Origin: Candidatus Woesearchaeota archaeon | GTDB lineage: Archaea; Nanobdellota; Nanobdellia; Woesearchaeales; UBA10216 | Direction: 5' to 3' | Assembly (NCBI GenBank): GCA_016188155.1 | Contig: JACPIH010000002.1 | Span: forward strand, 68,655 to 132,654 | DNA length: 64,000 bases | In this document: positions 48,544 through 56,244 of the stretch, in pieces | How the letters are laid out: the number at the start of each line of letters is the position of its first letter | How positions within the stretch are numbered: the stretch's first letter is position 1 | Notes under the pieces: model-generated | What the model was told of the DNA's origin: nothing | The model's input: the letters and a program-made list of their open reading frames with translations, nothing else | Databases searched by the model: none | Program-made: the position numbers and the translations under genes

Positions 48544-49476
48544 TTAATTATGCCTAAACCATTCAATCGTGCGCTTCAGGCCAGCGTCAACGCTTACCTT
48601 CGGCTGCCAGTTAAGCAGTTTCTTTGCCTTGGAAATGTCAGGGCATCTTGTCTTAGGGTCATCAACAGGCAAAGGCTTGAATGTTATCTTGCTGCCGCTG
48701 CCGGTAAGTTTCAAAATCTTCCCTGCAAACTCCAAAACAGTGTACTCATCAGGATTGCCAAGGTTAATAGGCTCACTAGCCTTTGACAGCATCAGCCGGT
48801 AAATACCCTCAACAAGATCGGTCACGTAACAAAAGCTTCTGGTCTGGGAGCCGTCACCAAAAACAGTAAGTGGCTTTCCTGAAAGGGCCTGCGTAATGAA
48901 AGCGGGAACAACACGGCCATCATTTTTGCGCATGCACTCACCATAAGTGTTGAAAATCCTGGCTATTTTCGTGTCCGTTTTATGAACGCGGTGGTAAGCC
49001 ATTGTGAGCGCCTCTGCAAACCTCTTTGCCTCATCGTAAACACCCCTGGGCCCGATAGGGTTAACATTGCCCCAGTAGCTTTCAGGCTGGGGATGAACAA
49101 GAGGATCACCGTAGACCTCTGAGGTTGAAGCAAGAAGAAAAACAGCCTTCTTAACCTTTGCCAAGCCAAGCATGTTATGAGTTCCCAAACTCCCAACTTT
49201 CAGCGTCTGGATAGGAAAAGCCGCATAATCAAAAGGCGATGCAGGACTAGCAAAATGAAGCACGTAATGAACAGGCTCTGGTATCTCAATGGGCTTCGTA
49301 ACATCATGGTTAATGAAAACAAAATCGCTGTTGCCCTTAAATTCAGTTATGTTCCTGCCGCTCCCGGTAAGGAAATTGTCAACGCAGACAACCCTGAAGC
49401 CCTTATCCAAAAGAAACCTGCACAAATGGCTGCCAATAAAACCGGCTCCGCCAGTAACGAGAACAGTTTTCTTCAT
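48544..49476 (-). CDS. UDP-glucuronate decarboxylase (UDP-xylose synthase / ArnA-C-terminal-like)
   Basis: [39 protein letters not shown]…YDEAKR typical UXS. Confidence 0.8.
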
Positions 49477-49529: not shown

Positions 49530-50282
49530 CTAAGGCTCAAACTCCTTCCTCGCCGCTTCAAGCGCCTCAATCCAGCCTATGTCAAACCACTTTTCAGTGT
49601 AAACGTGGCCAAGGACCTTCTCAAGCTTCATAAGCCACACAAGGAAAAAGCCCATCTTGTCAGGGCTGTTCTTTTCCGCAATGTATTTTTTAACCAAGTT
49701 AAGCTTTTGCTGCGGAAAAAAATAAATGCCCAAAGAGATCAAAGTGGATTTTGGCATAGGAGATTTTTCCATAAACTCAACAAACTCGTTAGTCAGCTCA
49801 TCAATCACGACGCTTCCAGATTCTCTCGCAGCCTTGTAAGATTTTGACTCATACAGCGGATTCAATATCTGCTTCTGCCGCATGAAAACATTGTAAGCAG
49901 GAAGAAGAGAGAAATTGAACAAGTTGTCTCCAGCAACAACAAGAAGGCCATCATCGATACCTTCCCTTTCCATAACGAAATGTATGTCCCCAACCTGGCC
50001 AAGGCGGTCATCATTGGATGCTGTGCCATCATTAACCAGCTTGATTGGAACTGGAAAGTTCGCCTTTATCTCAACCAGCCAGTCCTCAAACAAGGGATAA
50101 AACTTTGCATTTGTGACAATAAAGATTTCATCAACCTCAGGAATCTCGGAAATCTTTCCAACAATGTGCTCAACAATTGGCTTCCCCTTAACCTCAAGAA
50201 GCGGCTTCGGGATGTCTTTGGTCAATGGCCACAAGCGGGAGGCATAACCGGCAGCTGTAATTATTGCTTTGATACAAATCAC
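49530..50282 (-). CDS. sugar-phosphate nucleotidyltransferase
   Basis: AIITAAGYASRLWPLT…LLVVAGDNLF. Confidence 0.6.
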   Translation of the reverse strand: MICIKAIITAAGYASRLWPLTKDIPKPLLEVKGKPIVEHIVGKISEIPEVDEIFIVTNAKFYPLFEDWLVEIKANFPVPIKLVNDGTASNDDRLGQVGDIHFVMEREGIDDGLLVVAGDNLFNFSLLPAYNVFMRQKQILNPLYESKSYKAARESGSVVIDELTNEFVEFMEKSPMPKSTLISLGIYFFPQQKLNLVKKYIAEKNSPDKMGFFLVWLMKLEKVLGHVYTEKWFDIGWIEALEAARKEFEP

Positions 50283-50289
50283 CCCTCAT

Positions 50290-51591
50290 TTAGCCCCGGC
50301 CAATCCCAGCATAATTGAAGCCCAGGCTCCGCATTTCCTCTGGCTCGTAAATGTTGCGGCCATCAACGACATTAGGCTCGGCCATAAGCTGCTTCATCCT
50401 GCCCTTATCCAGTTCGCGGAACAAATCCCACTCAGTAACAACAACAAGGCAGCTTGCACCTTCCAAGGCACCCAGAGGCGTATCAGCGTAATGAACTCCA
50501 TTGAGAACCTGCCGGGCATTCCTCTCCGAAACAGGGTCAAAGGCATACACCTCGGCGCCAAGCTTCTGCAGCTCCCTTATTATGACAATTGAAGGGGCTT
50601 CCCTCATGTCATCAGTCTTTGGCTTGAAAGAAAGGCCCCAGACAGTAACCTTCCTGCCCTTCAAATCAGGCACGAGCCTCTGGACTTTTTGAATGACAGA
50701 AGACTTCTGCAATTCATTAATGCCGTCCACAGACTCCAAAAGCCTTGAGTTGCAGCCATGCGCCTTCATCAATTGAATCAGGGCCCTCACATCCTTAGGG
50801 AAACAGCTTCCGCCGTAACCAATGCCTGCCTGAAGGAACCTTGGGCCTATCCTGCTATCAAGGCCGATGCCTTTAGCGATTGTCTTCACATCGGCACCGA
50901 CCTTCTCACACAAATAGGAAATCTCGTTCATAAAGGAGATTCTTGTGGCAAGCATCGCATTGCTTGCGTACTTGATAAGCTCAGAGCTCTTGACATCGGT
51001 AATCATAATAGGCCTTCCGGTTCGCTCAATAGGCCTGTAAATGGAAAGCATAACGTCTTTTGCCTTGCCATTGTCAACGCCAATGACAACCCTGTCCGGA
51101 ATCATAAAGTCGTTAACAGCCTCGCCCTCCCTAAGGAACTCGGGATTTGAGACAACATCAAACTCAACGGCCTTCCTAAGCTTCTCCCTTATCAATTCCC
51201 GGACCTTGTGGCAGGTTCCAACAGGAACCGTGCTTTTGACTATGATAACCTTGTAAGAGCCCATAAACCTGGCAATCTGCTCGGCAACAGCAAAAACAGA
51301 AGACATGTCAGCGCTGCCATCAGAGCTGGAAGGGGTGCCAACAGCAATAAAGACAACATCAGAATTCTTAATGGCAATCTCAGAGTCTGTCGTAAACATA
51401 AGGCGCTTCTGGGCAAGGTTCATCTCAACCATGTCCCTAAGGCCGGGCTCGAAAAACGGGATAACGCCCCTCCTGAGAGCAGAGACCTTCTCGTCATCAA
51501 TGTCAACGCAGATAACGTCATTGCCAAGGTTAGCAAGGCAGGCGCCTGTCACAAGGCCAACGTAGCCACAACCAATAACAGCAATCTTCAT
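50290..51591 (-). CDS. ugd: UDP-glucose 6-dehydrogenase
   Basis: MKIAVIGCGYVGLVTGACLA…; GGSCFPKD catalytic Cys motif; ATG 51591 with TATA about 26 nt upstream. Confidence 0.85.
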   Translation of the reverse strand: MKIAVIGCGYVGLVTGACLANLGNDVICVDIDDEKVSALRRGVIPFFEPGLRDMVEMNLAQKRLMFTTDSEIAIKNSDVVFIAVGTPSSSDGSADMSSVFAVAEQIARFMGSYKVIIVKSTVPVGTCHKVRELIREKLRKAVEFDVVSNPEFLREGEAVNDFMIPDRVVIGVDNGKAKDVMLSIYRPIERTGRPIMITDVKSSELIKYASNAMLATRISFMNEISYLCEKVGADVKTIAKGIGLDSRIGPRFLQAGIGYGGSCFPKDVRALIQLMKAHGCNSRLLESVDGINELQKSSVIQKVQRLVPDLKGRKVTVWGLSFKPKTDDMREAPSIVIIRELQKLGAEVYAFDPVSERNARQVLNGVHYADTPLGALEGASCLVVVTEWDLFRELDKGRMKQLMAEPNVVDGRNIYEPEEMRSLGFNYAGIGRG

Positions 51592-51612
51592 ACTGCTGCC
51601 GAACACCAAACA

Positions 51613-51620
51613 CATATAAA
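51613..51620 (-). promoter_or_regulatory. TATA box (TTTATATG on minus strand) about 26 nt upstream of ugd ATG 51591
   Basis: Sequence and spacing in divergent ugd / RHH-regulator intergenic region. Confidence 0.4.
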
Positions 51621-51652
51621 TATCTTACCATTATCCTACCTTATCCGATACA

Positions 51653-51660
51653 TTTATATA
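51653..51660 (+). promoter_or_regulatory. TATA box (TTTATATA) upstream of RHH-nucleotidyltransferase gene 51711
   Basis: Sequence; about 50 nt before ATG. Confidence 0.35.
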
Positions 51661-51710
51661 TTCAAACGGTTAAGTCACAACACAATCACAGCAGCAGCTG
51701 CTGAACGAAA

Positions 51711-52511
51711 ATGAAGCGCAAAATCAGCATAACCATTGAGGACAGCCTACTGAAGGGAATAGACTCCGTCGTCGATAACGTCTTCATCAGGAACAGGTCG
51801 CAGGCCATCGAGTTTCTGACAAAGACGGCCCTGGGTGAGCACAAGCAGGCAGTCATACTGGCAGGGGGGCCCGATGAGAAGCTGAAGATTTCCGAGGCAG
51901 AATACAGAATAACGGCGAGGGTTAAAAACACGACAGTCGTTGAGAAAGCGGTAAAAAAGCTCAGGGAGAACGGCTTCAAGGACATCTACATCGTAGCGAG
52001 GCACAACGTCCTCACAAAGGTGTTTGACATTATGAAAGACGGCAGCAGCCACAACGTCAAGGTCACCTACATTGAGGAAAAGGAAAGCGACGGAAGCGCA
52101 GACACCCTGCGGCTGCTTAAAGGGAAGATAAGCACCAACTTTCTGGCAGTTTATGGGCACATAATATTTGACAAGGTAAACATAGAGGAGCTGTGGAACC
52201 AACATATAAAACAAGGCACGGCAGTAGCAACCCTTATACTGACAACAGCACCAAACCCGAGCGAGAAAGGTACAGTAAAAGTGGAAGGCAACCGCATACT
52301 GGAATTCATACAGAAACCGAGGAAAACCGACGTTTACCTTGTTTTCTCACCCATCTTTGTCGCAACTCCTGAAATATTCAACACAGAAGGCAGCAGCCTA
52401 GAGTACGACGTTTTTCCTAAGCTGGCAGAGCAAGGGCTCCTCTTTGGACACACATCAGCAGAGAAAGAGCAGCACATACACACGGCCGCAGACGCGAAAA
52501 CAATCAGGTAG
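51711..52511 (+). CDS. ribbon-helix-helix (CopG/NikR-like) DNA-binding domain fused to a degenerate sugar-nucleotidyltransferase-like domain (candidate ligand-sensing regulator)
   Basis: KISITIEDSLLKGIDSVV…NRSQAIEFL RHH pattern; then AVILAGGPDEKL…GSADTL NTP-transferase-like but lacking the GxGTRL phosphate-binding residues. Confidence 0.55.
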   Translation: MKRKISITIEDSLLKGIDSVVDNVFIRNRSQAIEFLTKTALGEHKQAVILAGGPDEKLKISEAEYRITARVKNTTVVEKAVKKLRENGFKDIYIVARHNVLTKVFDIMKDGSSHNVKVTYIEEKESDGSADTLRLLKGKISTNFLAVYGHIIFDKVNIEELWNQHIKQGTAVATLILTTAPNPSEKGTVKVEGNRILEFIQKPRKTDVYLVFSPIFVATPEIFNTEGSSLEYDVFPKLAEQGLLFGHTSAEKEQHIHTAADAKTIR

Positions 52512-52561: not shown

Positions 52562-52684
52562 CGTCGTGAACGGCCATGGCCGCCCGGTAATACCTGATCC
52601 CATTTCGAACTCAGAAGTCAAGCGGGCGCACGTTCCTGCCAGTACTGCACGTCGTGCGGAAACGTAGGATCGCTGTTCACACTT
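52562..52684 (+). rRNA. rrf: 5S ribosomal RNA
   Basis: …CCCAUUUCGAACUCAGAAGUCAAGCGGGCGCACG… matches conserved 5S loop C/helix III core; 5' GUGAACGGC pairs with 3' GCUGUUCAC (helix I); TATA upstream, T5 tract downstream. Confidence 0.8.
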
Positions 52685-53259: not shown

Positions 53260-53817
53260 ATGGTTTTCATAAGAATCAAGCGGATTTCCGGGAAAGAGTA
53301 CGGCTACCTTGTTGCCAACAGCTGGACAGGCTCAGGACCGAGGCAGAAGGTGTCAAAATACCTTGGAAGGCTGATAAGGCCTGAAAAGGCAAAAAGTGAG
53401 CCCTTAGCGCAGTTCCTGGGGCTTGCAGGCGAGCCTGCCATTACTGAATGGGTAAAGAAGAGCAGTTTCAAGGAGATTGCTGCTGCGCTGATAAAATGGG
53501 AGCTTAACAATCACAACATTGCAGAGAGCAGCTACGGAATCAGTGCAGAAAAGGCCGAACTTCTCGACTGTAAAGGCAAGCCGGTTGCCATTGCGCTGAA
53601 TGACGGGTTCCTGTGCGGCCACACAGCCAAAAAGCTGCTGGAATACGACGCAGCAGCCGACTACTCAGGCTATAATCTGGCAGACGCCTTAACAGCTGCC
53701 GGGATAGCTATTGAGAAAGAAGTCTTCATAACACTGTTCGGGAAGATGCAGGCAATGACAGGAGCCGGAAAGCAGGAAGCTGCGGCAAAAGAGACATTGA
53801 AGGACTTCTACTACTGA
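53260..53817 (+). CDS. hypothetical protein
   Basis: 185-aa ORF, no recognisable motif. Confidence 0.4.
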   Translation: MVFIRIKRISGKEYGYLVANSWTGSGPRQKVSKYLGRLIRPEKAKSEPLAQFLGLAGEPAITEWVKKSSFKEIAAALIKWELNNHNIAESSYGISAEKAELLDCKGKPVAIALNDGFLCGHTAKKLLEYDAAADYSGYNLADALTAAGIAIEKEVFITLFGKMQAMTGAGKQEAAAKETLKDFYY

Positions 53818-54881
53818 GAATTGCCATTAATCTCAAGCGTAATTTGACCAGTTTTCTCGTCGATGGATCTGATAAGCTTGTTGCTGCCGAAGTACTCCCT
53901 AAGCTGGTCTGGCGTGAAGGTCTTCCTGAGCGTGTTATAGTCGTCAAGGATGCGCTTAACGTCCTGGTAATGCTCATAGATGAGCTTTGCAGCCTTGGTA
54001 GCTTCCTCAGCAACCCTTGCAAACTCCGCAACTGCCGAATTCTGCTGCCCAATAGCTATTTCAAGCTCATTTATTCGCATTGAAAAAGCGGCAGTTTTCG
54101 GCGACACGGAAGCTGCGGTAAGCTGTGCCGTGGCGTTTGCCTCTAAAGTTGCGTTTATTGGCTGCTTCCTAGACAGCAGCTGCTGCAGTGATGAGTAAAG
54201 CTTCTGAAGTTCTAGTTGGGATAGCTTGGATGGTTTCTTGGACTTATCAACAGCGGCAGCAGAACAGAGCTGTTCAGCATATGTGCCGGAAAGGCCAAGG
54301 TCAACAGCCAAAGCCTTTACCACAGAGTCCTTTTCCGACGACAAAACAGCTTTTTGGAACTGCCCTTCATTCATCGCTGCAAAATCGGCAGTTGCCGGGG
54401 GAAGCGCGTAAGCGAATCCAGGCCTTACTGTGCGGTCCCTCCATGCCTGATGCTCAGCACAGCCAAGAATAACCCCTTTCTCATCAACCAGGATTACGTT
54501 GCCCTTGCTGAACAACTCGATAATGAGCCTGAAATGCAGCTGCTGTCTCGACGAGAAAACAAGCTCAAGGATGCGCTCTGAACCAGGCTGCAAGACCGAA
54601 GCCAGCCTTGCATTGCCCAAATGGTGCCTCAGAAAGCTGCAAAAGCCGCCAGGCTTCTCTGCAGTTGCCGGTTTCTTAGACGAGAAAAACAGTGAGGAAG
54701 GCGCAAGGCAGACAAGAAACCTTTTACCCTCACTTGTGTTCAGCTGCAGCACAATCGACTTCCCCGGCTTCGCTGCGGCTGGCTGCTGAAGCTCATAAAC
54801 CTGGTCCAGCCAAGAGCCTTCAAGCTGCTTAAGCTCACTCACAAGCGTCCTAAGCTCTATTGCAGCAATCTGGTTTCTCAT
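53811..54881 (-). CDS. NFACT-N domain protein (Rqc2/NEMF/FbpA-like N-terminal domain plus coiled coil)
   Basis: …RILELVFSSRQQLHFRLIIELFSKGNVILVDEKGVILGC… resembles NFACT-N core; coiled-coil C-terminus; shorter (356 aa) than full NEMF homologs. Confidence 0.45.
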   Translation of the reverse strand: MRNQIAAIELRTLVSELKQLEGSWLDQVYELQQPAAAKPGKSIVLQLNTSEGKRFLVCLAPSSLFFSSKKPATAEKPGGFCSFLRHHLGNARLASVLQPGSERILELVFSSRQQLHFRLIIELFSKGNVILVDEKGVILGCAEHQAWRDRTVRPGFAYALPPATADFAAMNEGQFQKAVLSSEKDSVVKALAVDLGLSGTYAEQLCSAAAVDKSKKPSKLSQLELQKLYSSLQQLLSRKQPINATLEANATAQLTAASVSPKTAAFSMRINELEIAIGQQNSAVAEFARVAEEATKAAKLIYEHYQDVKRILDDYNTLRKTFTPDQLREYFGSNKLIRSIDEKTGQITLEINGNSQ

Positions 54882-55690: not shown

Positions 55691-55723
55691 TCCGGACTAA
55701 ATCCGAACCTAGTCCGGACCTAC
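55670..55723 (+). repeat. copy 2 of about 44-bp palindrome-containing element, spanning stop codon of 54989..55690 and convergent intergenic region
   Basis: See copy 1. Confidence 0.6.
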
Positions 55724-56244
55724 GTCAGCAGCTTCCTGATTTTGGCCGCAAATGCCTTGACATCGGCTGTTTTTGCTGTTGTGGTGTCAAAGGCAACAAT
55801 CCTGTGACCCATTTCCTTGGCTTCAGAGAGGCAGGTGTCAAAGATCTCGGCATTGAGGTTTTCCCTTACCTTTGCCTGGCTGTAGCCTTTCCTTCTTAGC
55901 CGGTGCTGGAGGGTTTTTAAGCTGCAGCGGGCAACGAGGCACAAATCAGCGTACTTTTTGGGGAGATAGTGAGACATGTGTGAGTCGAGAATAATGCCTT
56001 TCCTGCCTCCTCTAAGGGCTTTTTGCCTCACTTTTATGCGTGAGCGGGCCAGTTTTGCCTCGTCTACAACGTAAGTATGCCTTTTCCGGTCGTAGCTGCT
56101 GTAAATGTGAGCATTCTTCACGAAAGAACCAACGTCAAAGTGCGTATAACTCAGCAAAAGTGAGAGCTTTTTGGCCAAGGTTGTCTTGCCAGTGCCCGGA
56201 GTGCCTGTGACAATCAGGGTTACGAAGCGAGTCGTCATCGCCAA
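55720..56244 (-). CDS. P-loop kinase of the adenylate-kinase-6/Fap7 family
   Basis: IVTGTPGTGKTTLAKKLS Walker A at N-terminus; about 170 aa. Confidence 0.6.
   Translation of the reverse strand: MAMTTRFVTLIVTGTPGTGKTTLAKKLSLLLSYTHFDVGSFVKNAHIYSSYDRKRHTYVVDEAKLARSRIKVRQKALRGGRKGIILDSHMSHYLPKKYADLCLVARCSLKTLQHRLRRKGYSQAKVRENLNAEIFDTCLSEAKEMGHRIVAFDTTTAKTADVKAFAAKIRKLLT

What the first reader, a model, noticed from the sequence alone, without database searches (positions are those of the whole stretch)
51711..52511. Ribbon-helix-helix DNA-binding domain fused to a degenerate sugar-nucleotidyltransferase domain, divergently arranged with ugd
The first roughly 45 residues (KISITIEDSLLKGIDSVV…NRSQAIEFL) fit the CopG/NikR/Arc RHH fold. 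The remaining roughly 220 residues resemble sugar-phosphate nucleotidyltransferases (AVILAGG…, GSADTL) but lack the G-x-G-T-R-L phosphate-binding residues, so the domain looks like a ligand-binding rather than a catalytic module. The gene shares a 95-bp divergent promoter region with ugd. That region holds two TATA boxes, and the gene sits at the edge of the nucleotide-sugar cluster. This is the expected arrangement for a regulator that senses a nucleotide sugar or sugar phosphate.
Basis: partly seen in the sequence, partly recalled or inferred. Interest (0 to 1): 0.6.

Follow-up and report, generated by a model that had tools for sequence, protein, structure and literature searches.

The report
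DNA-binding regulator with dead sugar-enzyme sensor
This archaeal gene most likely encodes a transcription factor made of a small DNA-binding domain fused to a catalytically degenerate sugar-nucleotide enzyme domain, and it sits beside a near-invariant DNA site in the promoter of the UDP-xylose pathway genes, an undescribed but directly testable regulator design.

Summary
ORF 51711-52511 (+, 266 aa) has an N-terminal ribbon-helix-helix (RHH) domain; the family profile hits the E. coli NikR RHH at E=2.5e-12. Its C-terminal domain has the NTP_transferase fold (Pfam E=2e-16; AlphaFold2 pLDDT 94; best structural matches RmlA, UDP-glucose, GDP-mannose and ADP-glucose pyrophosphorylases).

Across the whole orthologous clade, all from Woesearchaeota/Nanoarchaeota genomes assembled from metagenomes (MAGs), four enzyme motifs are replaced:
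- G-x-G-T-R-L becomes G-G-x-E-x-x-L
- the P-K lysine becomes Arg
- E-K-P becomes Q-K-P
- W-x-D-x-G becomes E-x-H-x-H

The gene is divergent from a ugd-nucleotidyltransferase-UXS (UDP-xylose) operon in 59 of 70 species loci.

New finding: the intergenic DNA holds a near-invariant ~35-bp block, a TATA box followed by three 10-11-bp-phased repeats (ATCTTACC / ATCCTACY / ATvCkAy; window 51615-51650). It is present once in 65 of 70 loci. An independent motif-first metagenome scan recovered the same gene pair (89/96 and 72/83).

Distant DPANN-archaeal family members (about 35% identity) also lie divergent from nucleotide-sugar operons. About 10 of 123 distant cluster representatives keep a signature-like motif, and several of these keep the full motif set.

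Best reading: a one-component regulator of UDP-sugar synthesis that also regulates itself. Ligand and sign of regulation are inferred, not shown. It is a new variant of a known kind.

The parts
51711..52511 (+). CDS of the RHH-NTase-like protein (266 aa, stop included)
   Evidence: ORF. It is 100% identical to HYV83_00695, a Candidatus Woesearchaeota archaeon 'hypothetical protein'. There are 593 homologues, and the best 120 are all full length at 63-100% identity.
51711..51845 (+). Ribbon-helix-helix DNA-binding domain (res 1-45). The strand is KISITI with K4/S6/T8, helix 1 is res 11-20, and helix 2 is res 29-40 behind an invariant N-R-S cap.
   Evidence: NikR RHH E=2.5e-12; Pfam RHH_1 in 37/48 members; for secondary structure; for invariant residues.
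51846..52508 (+). NTP_transferase-fold (sugar-1-phosphate nucleotidyltransferase-like) domain, proposed to be the ligand sensor
   Evidence: Pfam PF00483 at res 47-226, E=2e-16. AlphaFold2 pLDDT 94.2, pTM 0.86. Foldseek top hits are RmlA 4ecm/3hl3, UDP-glucose pyrophosphorylase 8x7s, GDP-mannose pyrophosphorylases 7x8j/7d72 and ADP-glucose pyrophosphorylase 5l6v, with TM 0.70-0.76 and E about 1e-18.
51864..51884 (+). Degenerate signature G52-G53-P-D-E-K-L58, in place of G-G-x-G-T-R-L
   Evidence: PDB alignments; clade-wide column counts.
52449..52481 (+). Clade-invariant H247...E253-x-H255-x-H257, in place of the canonical (Y/F)..G-x-W-x-D-x-G motif
51615..51622 (.). TATA1 (TATAAATA). Its centre is 27.5 nt from the ugd ATG at 51591, so ugd is predicted to be leaderless.
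   Evidence: Sequence. Positions -7..0 of the conserved block are 75-77/77 invariant, and these positions were not used to select the sequences.
51622..51650 (+). Putative operator of three phased direct repeats: R1 ATCTTACC (51622-51629), R2 ATCCTACC (51633-51640), R3 ATCCGATA (51643-51650)
   Evidence: It occurs once in the 64-kb window, with 0 expected by chance. It occurs once per locus in ~76/85 loci. A motif-first metagenome scan recovered the same gene pair.
51653..51660 (.). TATA2 (TTTATATA), an inverted copy of TATA1. It is the likely promoter of the RHH-NTase gene, with a predicted 5'UTR of about 27 nt.
   Evidence: I1.
50290..51591 (-). ugd (UDP-glucose 6-dehydrogenase-type NDP-sugar dehydrogenase), first gene of the divergent operon
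   Evidence: TIGR03026 E=2.8e-140; TuaD and AglM are the closest models. Synteny.
49530..50282 (-). Sugar-1-phosphate nucleotidyltransferase with an intact ...SRL...PKPLL motif, second gene of the operon
   Evidence: It has no detectable BLASTP similarity to the RHH-NTase protein.
48544..49476 (-). UDP-glucuronate decarboxylase (UXS), third gene of the operon
   Evidence: E=5e-108 over the full length to human UXS1 (4gll, 2b69); the next family scores 1e-35.

Best explanation
The gene encodes a one-component transcription factor. Its N-terminal RHH domain (NikR/CopG type, an obligate dimer) binds the three 10-11-bp-phased repeats that abut the TATA box shared with the divergent ugd-NTase-UXS operon. 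Its C-terminal domain is a sugar-nucleotidyltransferase fold that has lost the residues holding the NTP triphosphate, but keeps a strongly conserved pocket. That domain serves as the sensor, and probably the oligomerisation module, for a nucleotide sugar or a precursor of the UDP-glucose to UDP-glucuronate to UDP-xylose pathway. Ligand occupancy changes operator binding and so sets transcription of both the operon and the regulator's own gene. The most likely mode is product-dependent repression. R1 abuts the ugd TATA box, where the TFB-recognition element (BRE) of the ugd promoter would lie, and in many genomes the repeats lie between the TATA box and the regulator's own start codon. Shown here: the domain identities, the motif losses, the synteny and the conserved DNA block. 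Inferred: DNA binding, the identity of the ligand, the sign of regulation and the absence of catalysis.
For: RHH. The positions that align with NikR R3/T5/T7 are K/R4, S/T/A6 and T/S8, plus an (N/S)-R-S helix cap, and these are held across 147 family members. NTase fold. Motif degeneration is clade-wide: GG-x-E-x-x-L with the Arg position variable (K/H/R), R66 for the P-K lysine, Q201-K-P, H/D150, and E253-x-H255-x-H257. Synteny: 59 of 70 GTDB (Genome Taxonomy Database) species loci have a divergent NDP-sugar dehydrogenase within 600 bp, while downstream genes vary. Operator: the block from -7 to +27 is near-invariant and flanked by ~0-bit sequence, and 65 of 70 loci carry it. It is a single copy per locus and per 64-kb window. 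The motif-first scan gives RHH-NT on the repeat side in 89/96 stretches and a dehydrogenase on the TATA side in 72/83. When ugd is displaced the block stays with one partner or the other. Covariation hint: the Micrarchaeota member P0135 has the same K/S/T strand and the same TTACC-TTATCCTAC motif, while P0147 has an R/S/F strand and different GTATTAC repeats at an 11-bp period; both are divergent from nucleotide-sugar operons.
Against: There is no biochemical evidence of any kind. The protein is as conserved as the enzymes it would regulate, or more so (57-69% against 48-60% for ugd). That is unusual for a transcription factor and could point to an enzymatic or structural role. K202, G128 and, in about half of the clade, D150 are retained, so some residual or altered catalysis is not excluded. 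Part of R1 could owe its conservation to BRE function. The ligand is not constrained: the sensor domain is not a recent copy of the neighbouring enzyme. Three to five loci have the operator and ugd but no adjacent regulator gene, which fits action in trans but is not proof of it.
Confidence: 0.62

Rival explanations
1. It is a bifunctional enzyme-repressor of the BirA, NadR or PutA type. The NTase domain is still catalytically active, perhaps on an unusual sugar phosphate or with unusual metal chemistry through the His cluster, and the RHH domain lets the enzyme also repress the pathway promoter.
For: Distant RHH-NTase relatives keep the full set G-x-G-x-R-L, P-K, G-D, E-K-P and W-x-D-x-G. Sequence conservation is very high and enzyme-like. 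K202, G128 and D150 (in half the clade) are retained.
Against: In none of the aligned orthologues is the signature intact. The Arg position is variable (K/H/R/N/G) and so is not under catalytic constraint. An acidic residue (E55) sits where Thr normally contacts phosphate. The second metal-binding Asp is His. The operon already encodes a canonical NTase.
Confidence: 0.14
2. It is a transcription factor, but its signal is not a nucleotide sugar. One option is a divalent metal bound by the invariant H165/H247/H255/H257 set, echoing NikR, whose RHH is its closest relative. Another is that it acts mainly through protein-protein contact with the pathway NTase, as GalF and GMPPA do.
For: The RHH is closest to NikR. 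The invariant His residues replace canonical NTase motif residues. Non-catalytic NTase paralogues that regulate catalytic partners are known (GMPPA in 7d72 is among the fold hits; a GalF model is among the NCBIfam hits for the neighbouring enzyme).
Against: NikR full-length models score 19 bits against a cut-off of 175, and the C-terminal domain is not the NikR metal-binding fold. The genomic partner is consistently a nucleotide-sugar operon, and no metal transporter is conserved nearby.
Confidence: 0.14
3. It is not a regulator of this promoter. The conserved block would be basal promoter sequence (BRE, TATA, initiator) of highly expressed leaderless genes, or the site of another factor, and the RHH domain would have another role.
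For: R1 abuts the TATA box and could double as the ugd BRE. Leaderless geometry constrains spacing.
Against: About 28 bp beyond the TATA box are near-invariant, far more than a 6-7-bp BRE would explain. The block has internal 10-11-bp periodicity. It follows the RHH-NT gene when ugd is absent. It changes where the RHH strand residues change. The motif-first scan recovers the RHH-NT gene in 89/96 stretches.
Confidence: 0.05

Closest known systems
NikR (nickel-responsive RHH repressor)
   Same: It has the closest RHH sequence (E=2.5e-12 to 1q5v). It has the same strand pattern (basic-x-S/T-x-T) and the same N-R-S-x-A-I helix cap. The logic is also the same: an N-terminal RHH plus a C-terminal ligand-binding and oligomerisation domain. 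From memory, untested here: the NikR half-site GTATGA resembles the reverse complement of the repeat, GTA(G/A)GAT.
   Different: The C-terminal domain is an NTP_transferase fold, not the ACT-like nickel-binding domain. NikR models score far below cut-off (19 against 175 bits). The operator is three direct repeats at 10-11 bp, not a 6-16-6 inverted repeat. The target is a nucleotide-sugar operon.
Enzyme-repressor fusions: BirA, NadR, PutA
   Same: A DNA-binding domain is fused to a pathway enzyme fold and controls the pathway's own genes. PutA uses an RHH. NadR and BirA carry adenylyl-transfer domains, and in BirA the reaction intermediate acts as co-repressor (established knowledge).
   Different: Those enzyme domains are active. 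Here the catalytic signature is lost in the whole clade. The fold is different (GT-A-like sugar NTase). The lineage is archaeal (DPANN) and the promoter is TATA/BRE-type.
Non-catalytic NTase paralogues that act as regulators: GMPPA, GalF, ADP-glucose pyrophosphorylase large subunit
   Same: The sugar-nucleotidyltransferase fold is re-used as a ligand-sensing, non-catalytic regulator of nucleotide-sugar supply. GMPPA/GMPPB (7d72) is among the best fold matches.
   Different: Those act after translation, inside hetero-oligomers with the catalytic paralogue, and have no DNA-binding domain. Here the domain is fused to an RHH and paired with a conserved operator.
Canonical sugar-1-phosphate nucleotidyltransferases (RmlA, GalU/UGPase, archaeal GlmU N-domain, AglF)
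   Same: The fold is the same, and G128, K202-P203 and an F/Y-G-D/H motif are retained. Database annotation files the protein here ('sugar phosphate nucleotidyltransferase', 'AglF').
   Different: It lacks G-x-G-T-R-L, the P-K lysine, the E of E-K-P and W-x-D-x-G. All equivalog models score far below cut-off. It has an RHH extension.

Membership tests
Ribbon-helix-helix (CopG/NikR/Arc/MetJ) DNA-binding superfamily | A beta-alpha-alpha module of ~45 residues, detectable by sequence profile | tested here: met
   The family N-terminal profile hits NikR at 2.5e-12, NikR (P. horikoshii) at 1.7e-7 and CopG at 5e-4. Pfam RHH_1 matches 37/48 members, best 7.7e-11. The AlphaFold2 model has helices 11-20 and 29-40 after an extended N-terminal segment, with pLDDT 88-92.
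Ribbon-helix-helix (CopG/NikR/Arc/MetJ) DNA-binding superfamily | Alternating polar or basic residues on the strand, and a phosphate-contacting cap at the N-terminus of helix 2 | tested here: met
   K/R4, S/T/A6 and T/S8 are conserved, and (N/S)28-R29-S30 is nearly invariant across 147 sequences. They align to NikR R3/T5/T7 and N-R-S.
Ribbon-helix-helix (CopG/NikR/Arc/MetJ) DNA-binding superfamily | Intertwined dimer that binds repeated DNA sites | not testable with these tools
   Only a monomer could be modelled. The indirect evidence is three conserved repeats at 10-11-bp spacing next to the gene.
NikR family | C-terminal ACT-like tetramerisation and nickel-binding domain; full-length model above cut-off | tested here: not met
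   TIGR02793 scores 19.3 bits against a cut-off of 175 and matches res 4-44 only. The C-terminal domain is NTP_transferase.
Sugar-1-phosphate nucleotidyltransferases (PF00483 enzymes) | The NTP_transferase fold | tested here: met
   Pfam 60.8 bits against a cut-off of 21.2. Foldseek TM 0.70-0.76 to RmlA, UGPase, GMPP and AGPase.
Sugar-1-phosphate nucleotidyltransferases (PF00483 enzymes) | N-terminal G-x-G-T-R-L signature that binds the NTP phosphates | tested here: not met
   The window protein has GGPDEKL. The clade consensus is GG-x-E-x-x-L, with the Arg position K/H/R and variable.
Sugar-1-phosphate nucleotidyltransferases (PF00483 enzymes) | Catalytic Lys of the P-K motif, E-K-P, G-D, and the W-x-D-x-G metal-binding Asp (roles taken from established RmlA/GlmU literature, from memory) | tested here: not met
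   The clade has R66, Q201-K202-P203, G149-(H/D)150 and E253-x-H255-x-H257. Distant canonical relatives such as P0184 keep all of these motifs.
Sugar-1-phosphate nucleotidyltransferases (PF00483 enzymes) | Pyrophosphorylase activity | not testable with these tools
   This needs an enzyme assay.
Pseudo-NTase regulatory subunits (GMPPA, GalF type) | Non-catalytic paralogue that binds the nucleotide-sugar product and forms a complex with the catalytic paralogue | not testable with these tools
   The fold resemblance includes 7d72. No complex prediction was possible. There is no sequence similarity to the neighbouring NTase.
Enzyme-repressor fusions (BirA/NadR/PutA type) | DNA-binding domain fused to a catalytically competent pathway enzyme | tested here: inconclusive
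   The fusion is present. The catalytic motifs are lost in this clade but kept in about 10 of 123 distant family clusters. Activity was not tested.

The most novel reading that the evidence does not exclude
RHH-NTase proteins form a family of one-component regulators, so far found only in DPANN archaea, in which a sugar-nucleotidyltransferase fold has been turned into the sensor domain of a transcription factor. The family would have evolved from bifunctional enzyme-repressors that still exist in it. In Woesearchaeota the family, together with an operator conserved almost base for base across an order and recognisable in Micrarchaeota, provides feedback control of UDP-xylose/UDP-glucuronate supply for the cell surface. 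It would be one of very few regulatory circuits in these uncultured symbionts that can be reconstituted from sequence alone.
Probability: 0.5. Interest if true: 0.72.

Novelty: new variant of a known kind. Interest (0 to 1): 0.64.

Why it matters
Almost nothing is known about gene regulation in DPANN archaea, which are uncultured and have very few recognisable transcription factors. This work gives a complete and testable circuit: a defined protein, a defined 35-bp operator, a defined target operon (UDP-glucose to UDP-glucuronate to UDP-xylose) and a short list of candidate ligands. It also adds a new sensor-domain type, the NTP_transferase fold, to transcription-factor architectures. The family contains both motif-intact and degenerate members, so it documents an enzyme-to-sensor transition. 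Public databases name these proteins 'hypothetical' or 'sugar phosphate nucleotidyltransferase / AglF'. The enzyme names are probably misannotations, and they inflate the inferred metabolic capacity of these genomes.

Tried and rejected
- The first AlphaFold2 run, on 21 close homologues, gave pLDDT 56 and was discarded. It was redone with 147 diverse family members and reached pLDDT 94.
- The afdb50 fold library was unavailable.
- The repeat finder reported no direct repeats in the spacer, because the units are imperfect 8-mers. The repeat structure was instead derived from the 77-sequence conservation table.
- I searched for further operator copies, to detect a wider regulon. There were none in the 64-kb window at up to 3 mismatches, and none beyond the ugd/regulator spacer in about 200 loci. 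This suggests a dedicated local regulator, but whole genomes were not searched.
- I tested whether the sensor domain is a recent duplicate of the neighbouring NTase, which would have suggested the ligand. There is no BLASTP similarity.
- The contexts of motif-intact relatives P0241 and P0184 were short and uninformative. P0179, a very degenerate member, lies in a non-sugar context.
- Five full-text literature searches found no description of this fusion.
- Linkage to the 5S rRNA gene was rejected as incidental, because it is not conserved.
- NikR membership was rejected.

Full report
**1. The observation**

The ORF at 51711..52511 (+) is real and encodes 266 aa. Its exact product is deposited as 'hypothetical protein HYV83_00695 [Candidatus Woesearchaeota archaeon]'.

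- Pfam places NTP_transferase at residues 47-226 (E=2e-16).
- NCBIfam gives only sub-threshold matches. These are to the archaeal GlmU N-domain, RmlA, AglF and ManC for the body, and to NikR for residues 4-44.
- PDB sequence matches are a UDP-glucose pyrophosphorylase (8x7s) and RmlA (3hl3, 1lvw). In those alignments the enzymes' GGxGTRL lines up with GGPDEKL, and the P-K lysine lines up with R66.
- The window also contains a stand-alone 5S rRNA gene 54 bp downstream.

**2. The two domains**

A profile of 48 diverse family N-termini hits the RHH domains of solved structures:
- E. coli NikR, E=2.5e-12
- P. horikoshii NikR, E=1.7e-7
- a mycobacterial RHH antitoxin, E=2.4e-6
- CopG, E=5e-4

Pfam RHH_1 matches 37 of the 48 members individually. 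The residues aligned to NikR R3/T5/T7 are K4/S6/T8. Across 147 family sequences these positions stay K/R, S/T/A and T/S, and the helix-2 cap (N/S)-R-S is nearly invariant.

A first AlphaFold2 run on 21 close homologues was poor (pLDDT 56). With 147 diverse members the model reached pLDDT 94.2 and pTM 0.86. The N-terminal module has an extended segment followed by helices 11-20 and 29-40, as expected for one half of an RHH dimer. The rest of the model matches RmlA, UGPase, GDP-mannose pyrophosphorylases (including the GMPPA/GMPPB complex) and ADP-glucose pyrophosphorylase, with TM 0.70-0.76 and E about 1e-18.

**3. Degeneration of the enzyme motifs**

In the orthologous clade (63-90% identity to the window protein) the following hold:
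- The signature is G-G-x-E-x-x-L. The position of the catalytic Arg varies (K/H/R).
- The P-K lysine is Arg.
- G-D is G-H or G-D, in about equal numbers.
- E-K-P is Q-K-P.
- (Y/F)..G-x-W-x-D-x-G is H..E-K-E-x-H-x-H, with all three His invariant.

The roles of these motifs in catalysis are taken from the RmlA/GlmU literature, from memory. Other pocket positions (E122-E123-K124, G128, K202, T178-T179, K186-G-T-V) are invariant. This fits a conserved binding site without the triphosphate-handling residues.

**4. Family breadth**

A profile search of 1.84 billion cluster representatives found 110 clusters at E<=1e-30. Nearly all of the top 150 cover the profile from position 1-2 to about 250-264, which means RHH plus NTase. 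Named members come from Woesearchaeota and from the Micrarchaeota Ca. Tiddalikarchaeum and Ca. Gugararchaeum.

Seven of 123 full-length representatives match a strict G-x-G-(T/S)-(R/K)-L pattern, and about ten match a looser one. Several of these, such as P0184, P0190 and P0210, also keep P-K, G-D, E-K-P and W-x-D-x-G. So the family spans apparently competent enzymes fused to an RHH and a majority of degenerate forms. This suggests an enzyme-repressor ancestor.

**5. Genomic context**

The three genes divergent from the regulator are:
- a UDP-glucose 6-dehydrogenase-type enzyme (TIGR03026, E=2.8e-140)
- a sugar-1-phosphate nucleotidyltransferase with intact motifs
- a UDP-glucuronate decarboxylase (E=5e-108 to human UXS1)

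Together they form a UDP-xylose pathway. Further upstream lies a glycan cluster.

172 GTDB (Genome Taxonomy Database) species genomes encode a relative, and 80 loci were kept. Of the 70 loci with at least 1.6 kb of upstream sequence, 59 have a divergent NDP-sugar dehydrogenase within 600 bp. This gene is usually followed by the NTase and UXS, while the genes downstream of the regulator differ from locus to locus. In the same loci the regulator is as conserved as ugd and the NTase, or more so.

**6. The new element**

The spacers share a block with sharp edges: T-w-T-A-A-A-T | ATCTTACC n TT ATCCTACy TT ATvCkAy. Positions -7..-1 and +26 were not used for selecting the sequences, and they are 75-77/77 identical. 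The flanks carry about 0 bits.

In the window the block is laid out as follows:
- TATA1 at 51615-51622
- R1 at 51622-51629
- R2 at 51633-51640
- R3 at 51643-51650
- an inverted TATA2 at 51653-51660

The 23-bp core occurs once in the window, with 0 expected by chance, and once per locus in about 76 of 85 loci. It lies within 600 bp upstream of the regulator in 65 of 70 loci.

The regulator lies on the repeat side in 89/96 stretches and a dehydrogenase on the TATA side in 72/83. Where ugd is displaced, the block stays with the regulator (for example L021, L057, L079). Where an insert separates the two genes, it stays with ugd (L015, L039, L041). In L099, L171 and L175 it is with ugd alone, and in L083 it is inverted.

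Two architectures exist. Short spacers (54-70 bp) have a single palindromic TATA about 25 nt from the ugd ATG and about 29 nt from the regulator's ATG. That geometry implies two leaderless transcripts, with the repeats lying between the TATA box and the regulator's start. The window type adds a second TATA after R3.

**7. Distant members**

The Ca. Tiddalikarchaeum protein is 35% identical and has the same K/S/T strand. It is divergent from a UXS-like-NTase-NTase-GT2 operon, and its spacer reads TTATAAATATATTACCTTTATCCTAC-TTG-GTAGGATAA. That is the same motif plus an inverted copy.

The Ca. Gugararchaeum protein has an R/S/F strand. It is divergent from an epimerase-epimerase-DegT-AglB operon, and its spacer has GTATTAC-type repeats at an 11-bp period. 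This is a two-point hint that reading head and operator covary.

**8. Mechanism and alternatives**

The best-supported model is an RHH regulator that binds the phased repeats at the shared promoter and is modulated by a pathway nucleotide sugar bound in the degenerate NTase pocket. Product-dependent repression is the most likely mode, because the repeats abut the TATA box and the region where a BRE would lie.

The alternatives are scored in the structured fields:
- an active bifunctional enzyme-repressor
- a different signal, either a metal bound by the His residues or a protein partner
- a block that is only basal promoter sequence

Nothing biochemical is shown here.

**9. Comparison with known systems and novelty**

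The protein works like NikR, MetJ or BirA-type feedback regulators, and like the GMPPA/GalF pseudo-enzyme sensors. It is a member of the RHH superfamily and of the NTP_transferase fold family. It fails the membership tests for NikR and for catalytic sugar nucleotidyltransferases.

Five full-text literature searches found no description of the fusion. I rate it a new variant of a known kind, with moderately high interest because the circuit is complete and can be tested directly.

Noticed in passing
window 52566-52681 (+): A stand-alone 5S rRNA gene (Rfam 66.6 bits) lies 54 bp after the regulator's stop codon. No 16S or 23S rRNA was found in the 64-kb window, and the linkage is not conserved in related loci.
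   Followed up: partly
L055, L059, L016, L002, L033 and other short-spacer loci (spacers listed): A single palindromic TATA box (TATTTAAATA) sits about 25 nt from the ugd ATG and about 29 nt from the regulator's ATG. One TATA element therefore appears to drive two divergent leaderless genes only 54-70 bp apart.
   Followed up: partly
window 51689-51703: A perfect palindrome, CAGCAGC-n-GCTGCTG, lies in the predicted 5'UTR just upstream of the regulator's ATG (I3). CTGCTGC at 51593-51599 is complementary to part of it (I2). Its significance is unknown.
   Followed up: no
L024, L026, L034, L038, L041, L070 (between the operator and the regulator gene): These loci carry 150-400-bp hairpin-rich inserts that resemble each other between species (for example L024/L041, 74 bp at 90% identity, with inverted matches). 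They look like miniature inverted-repeat transposable elements (MITEs) inserted into the spacer, and they leave the operator on the ugd side.
   Followed up: partly
window 51613-51615 against 51589-51591: The longest ugd ORF starts at an ATG that overlaps TATA1. Homologue alignments and promoter geometry indicate that the true start is MKIAVIG at 51591.
   Followed up: yes
L008, L010, L019-L021, L028, L030 and others: Many third-party-annotated MAG records carrying this Woesearchaeota-type locus are titled 'uncultured Methanosarcinales archaeon'. Two family proteins are filed under 'bacterium' and 'Omnitrophica'. These are probably taxonomic mislabels or mis-binning.
   Followed up: no
window 53811-54881 (-) and 55720-56244 (-): A 356-aa ORF and a 174-aa P-loop ORF lie downstream of the regulator. 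Loci L001 and L004 carry an NFACT_N gene and an AAA_18 kinase-like gene at a similar relative position downstream, with variable genes in between, which would be a looser second layer of synteny. The two window ORFs were not themselves scanned against Pfam.
   Followed up: no
P0047 (alignment columns 157-193): One homologue carries an internal 37-residue tandem duplication within the NTase-like domain. This could be an assembly artefact or a real variant.
   Followed up: no
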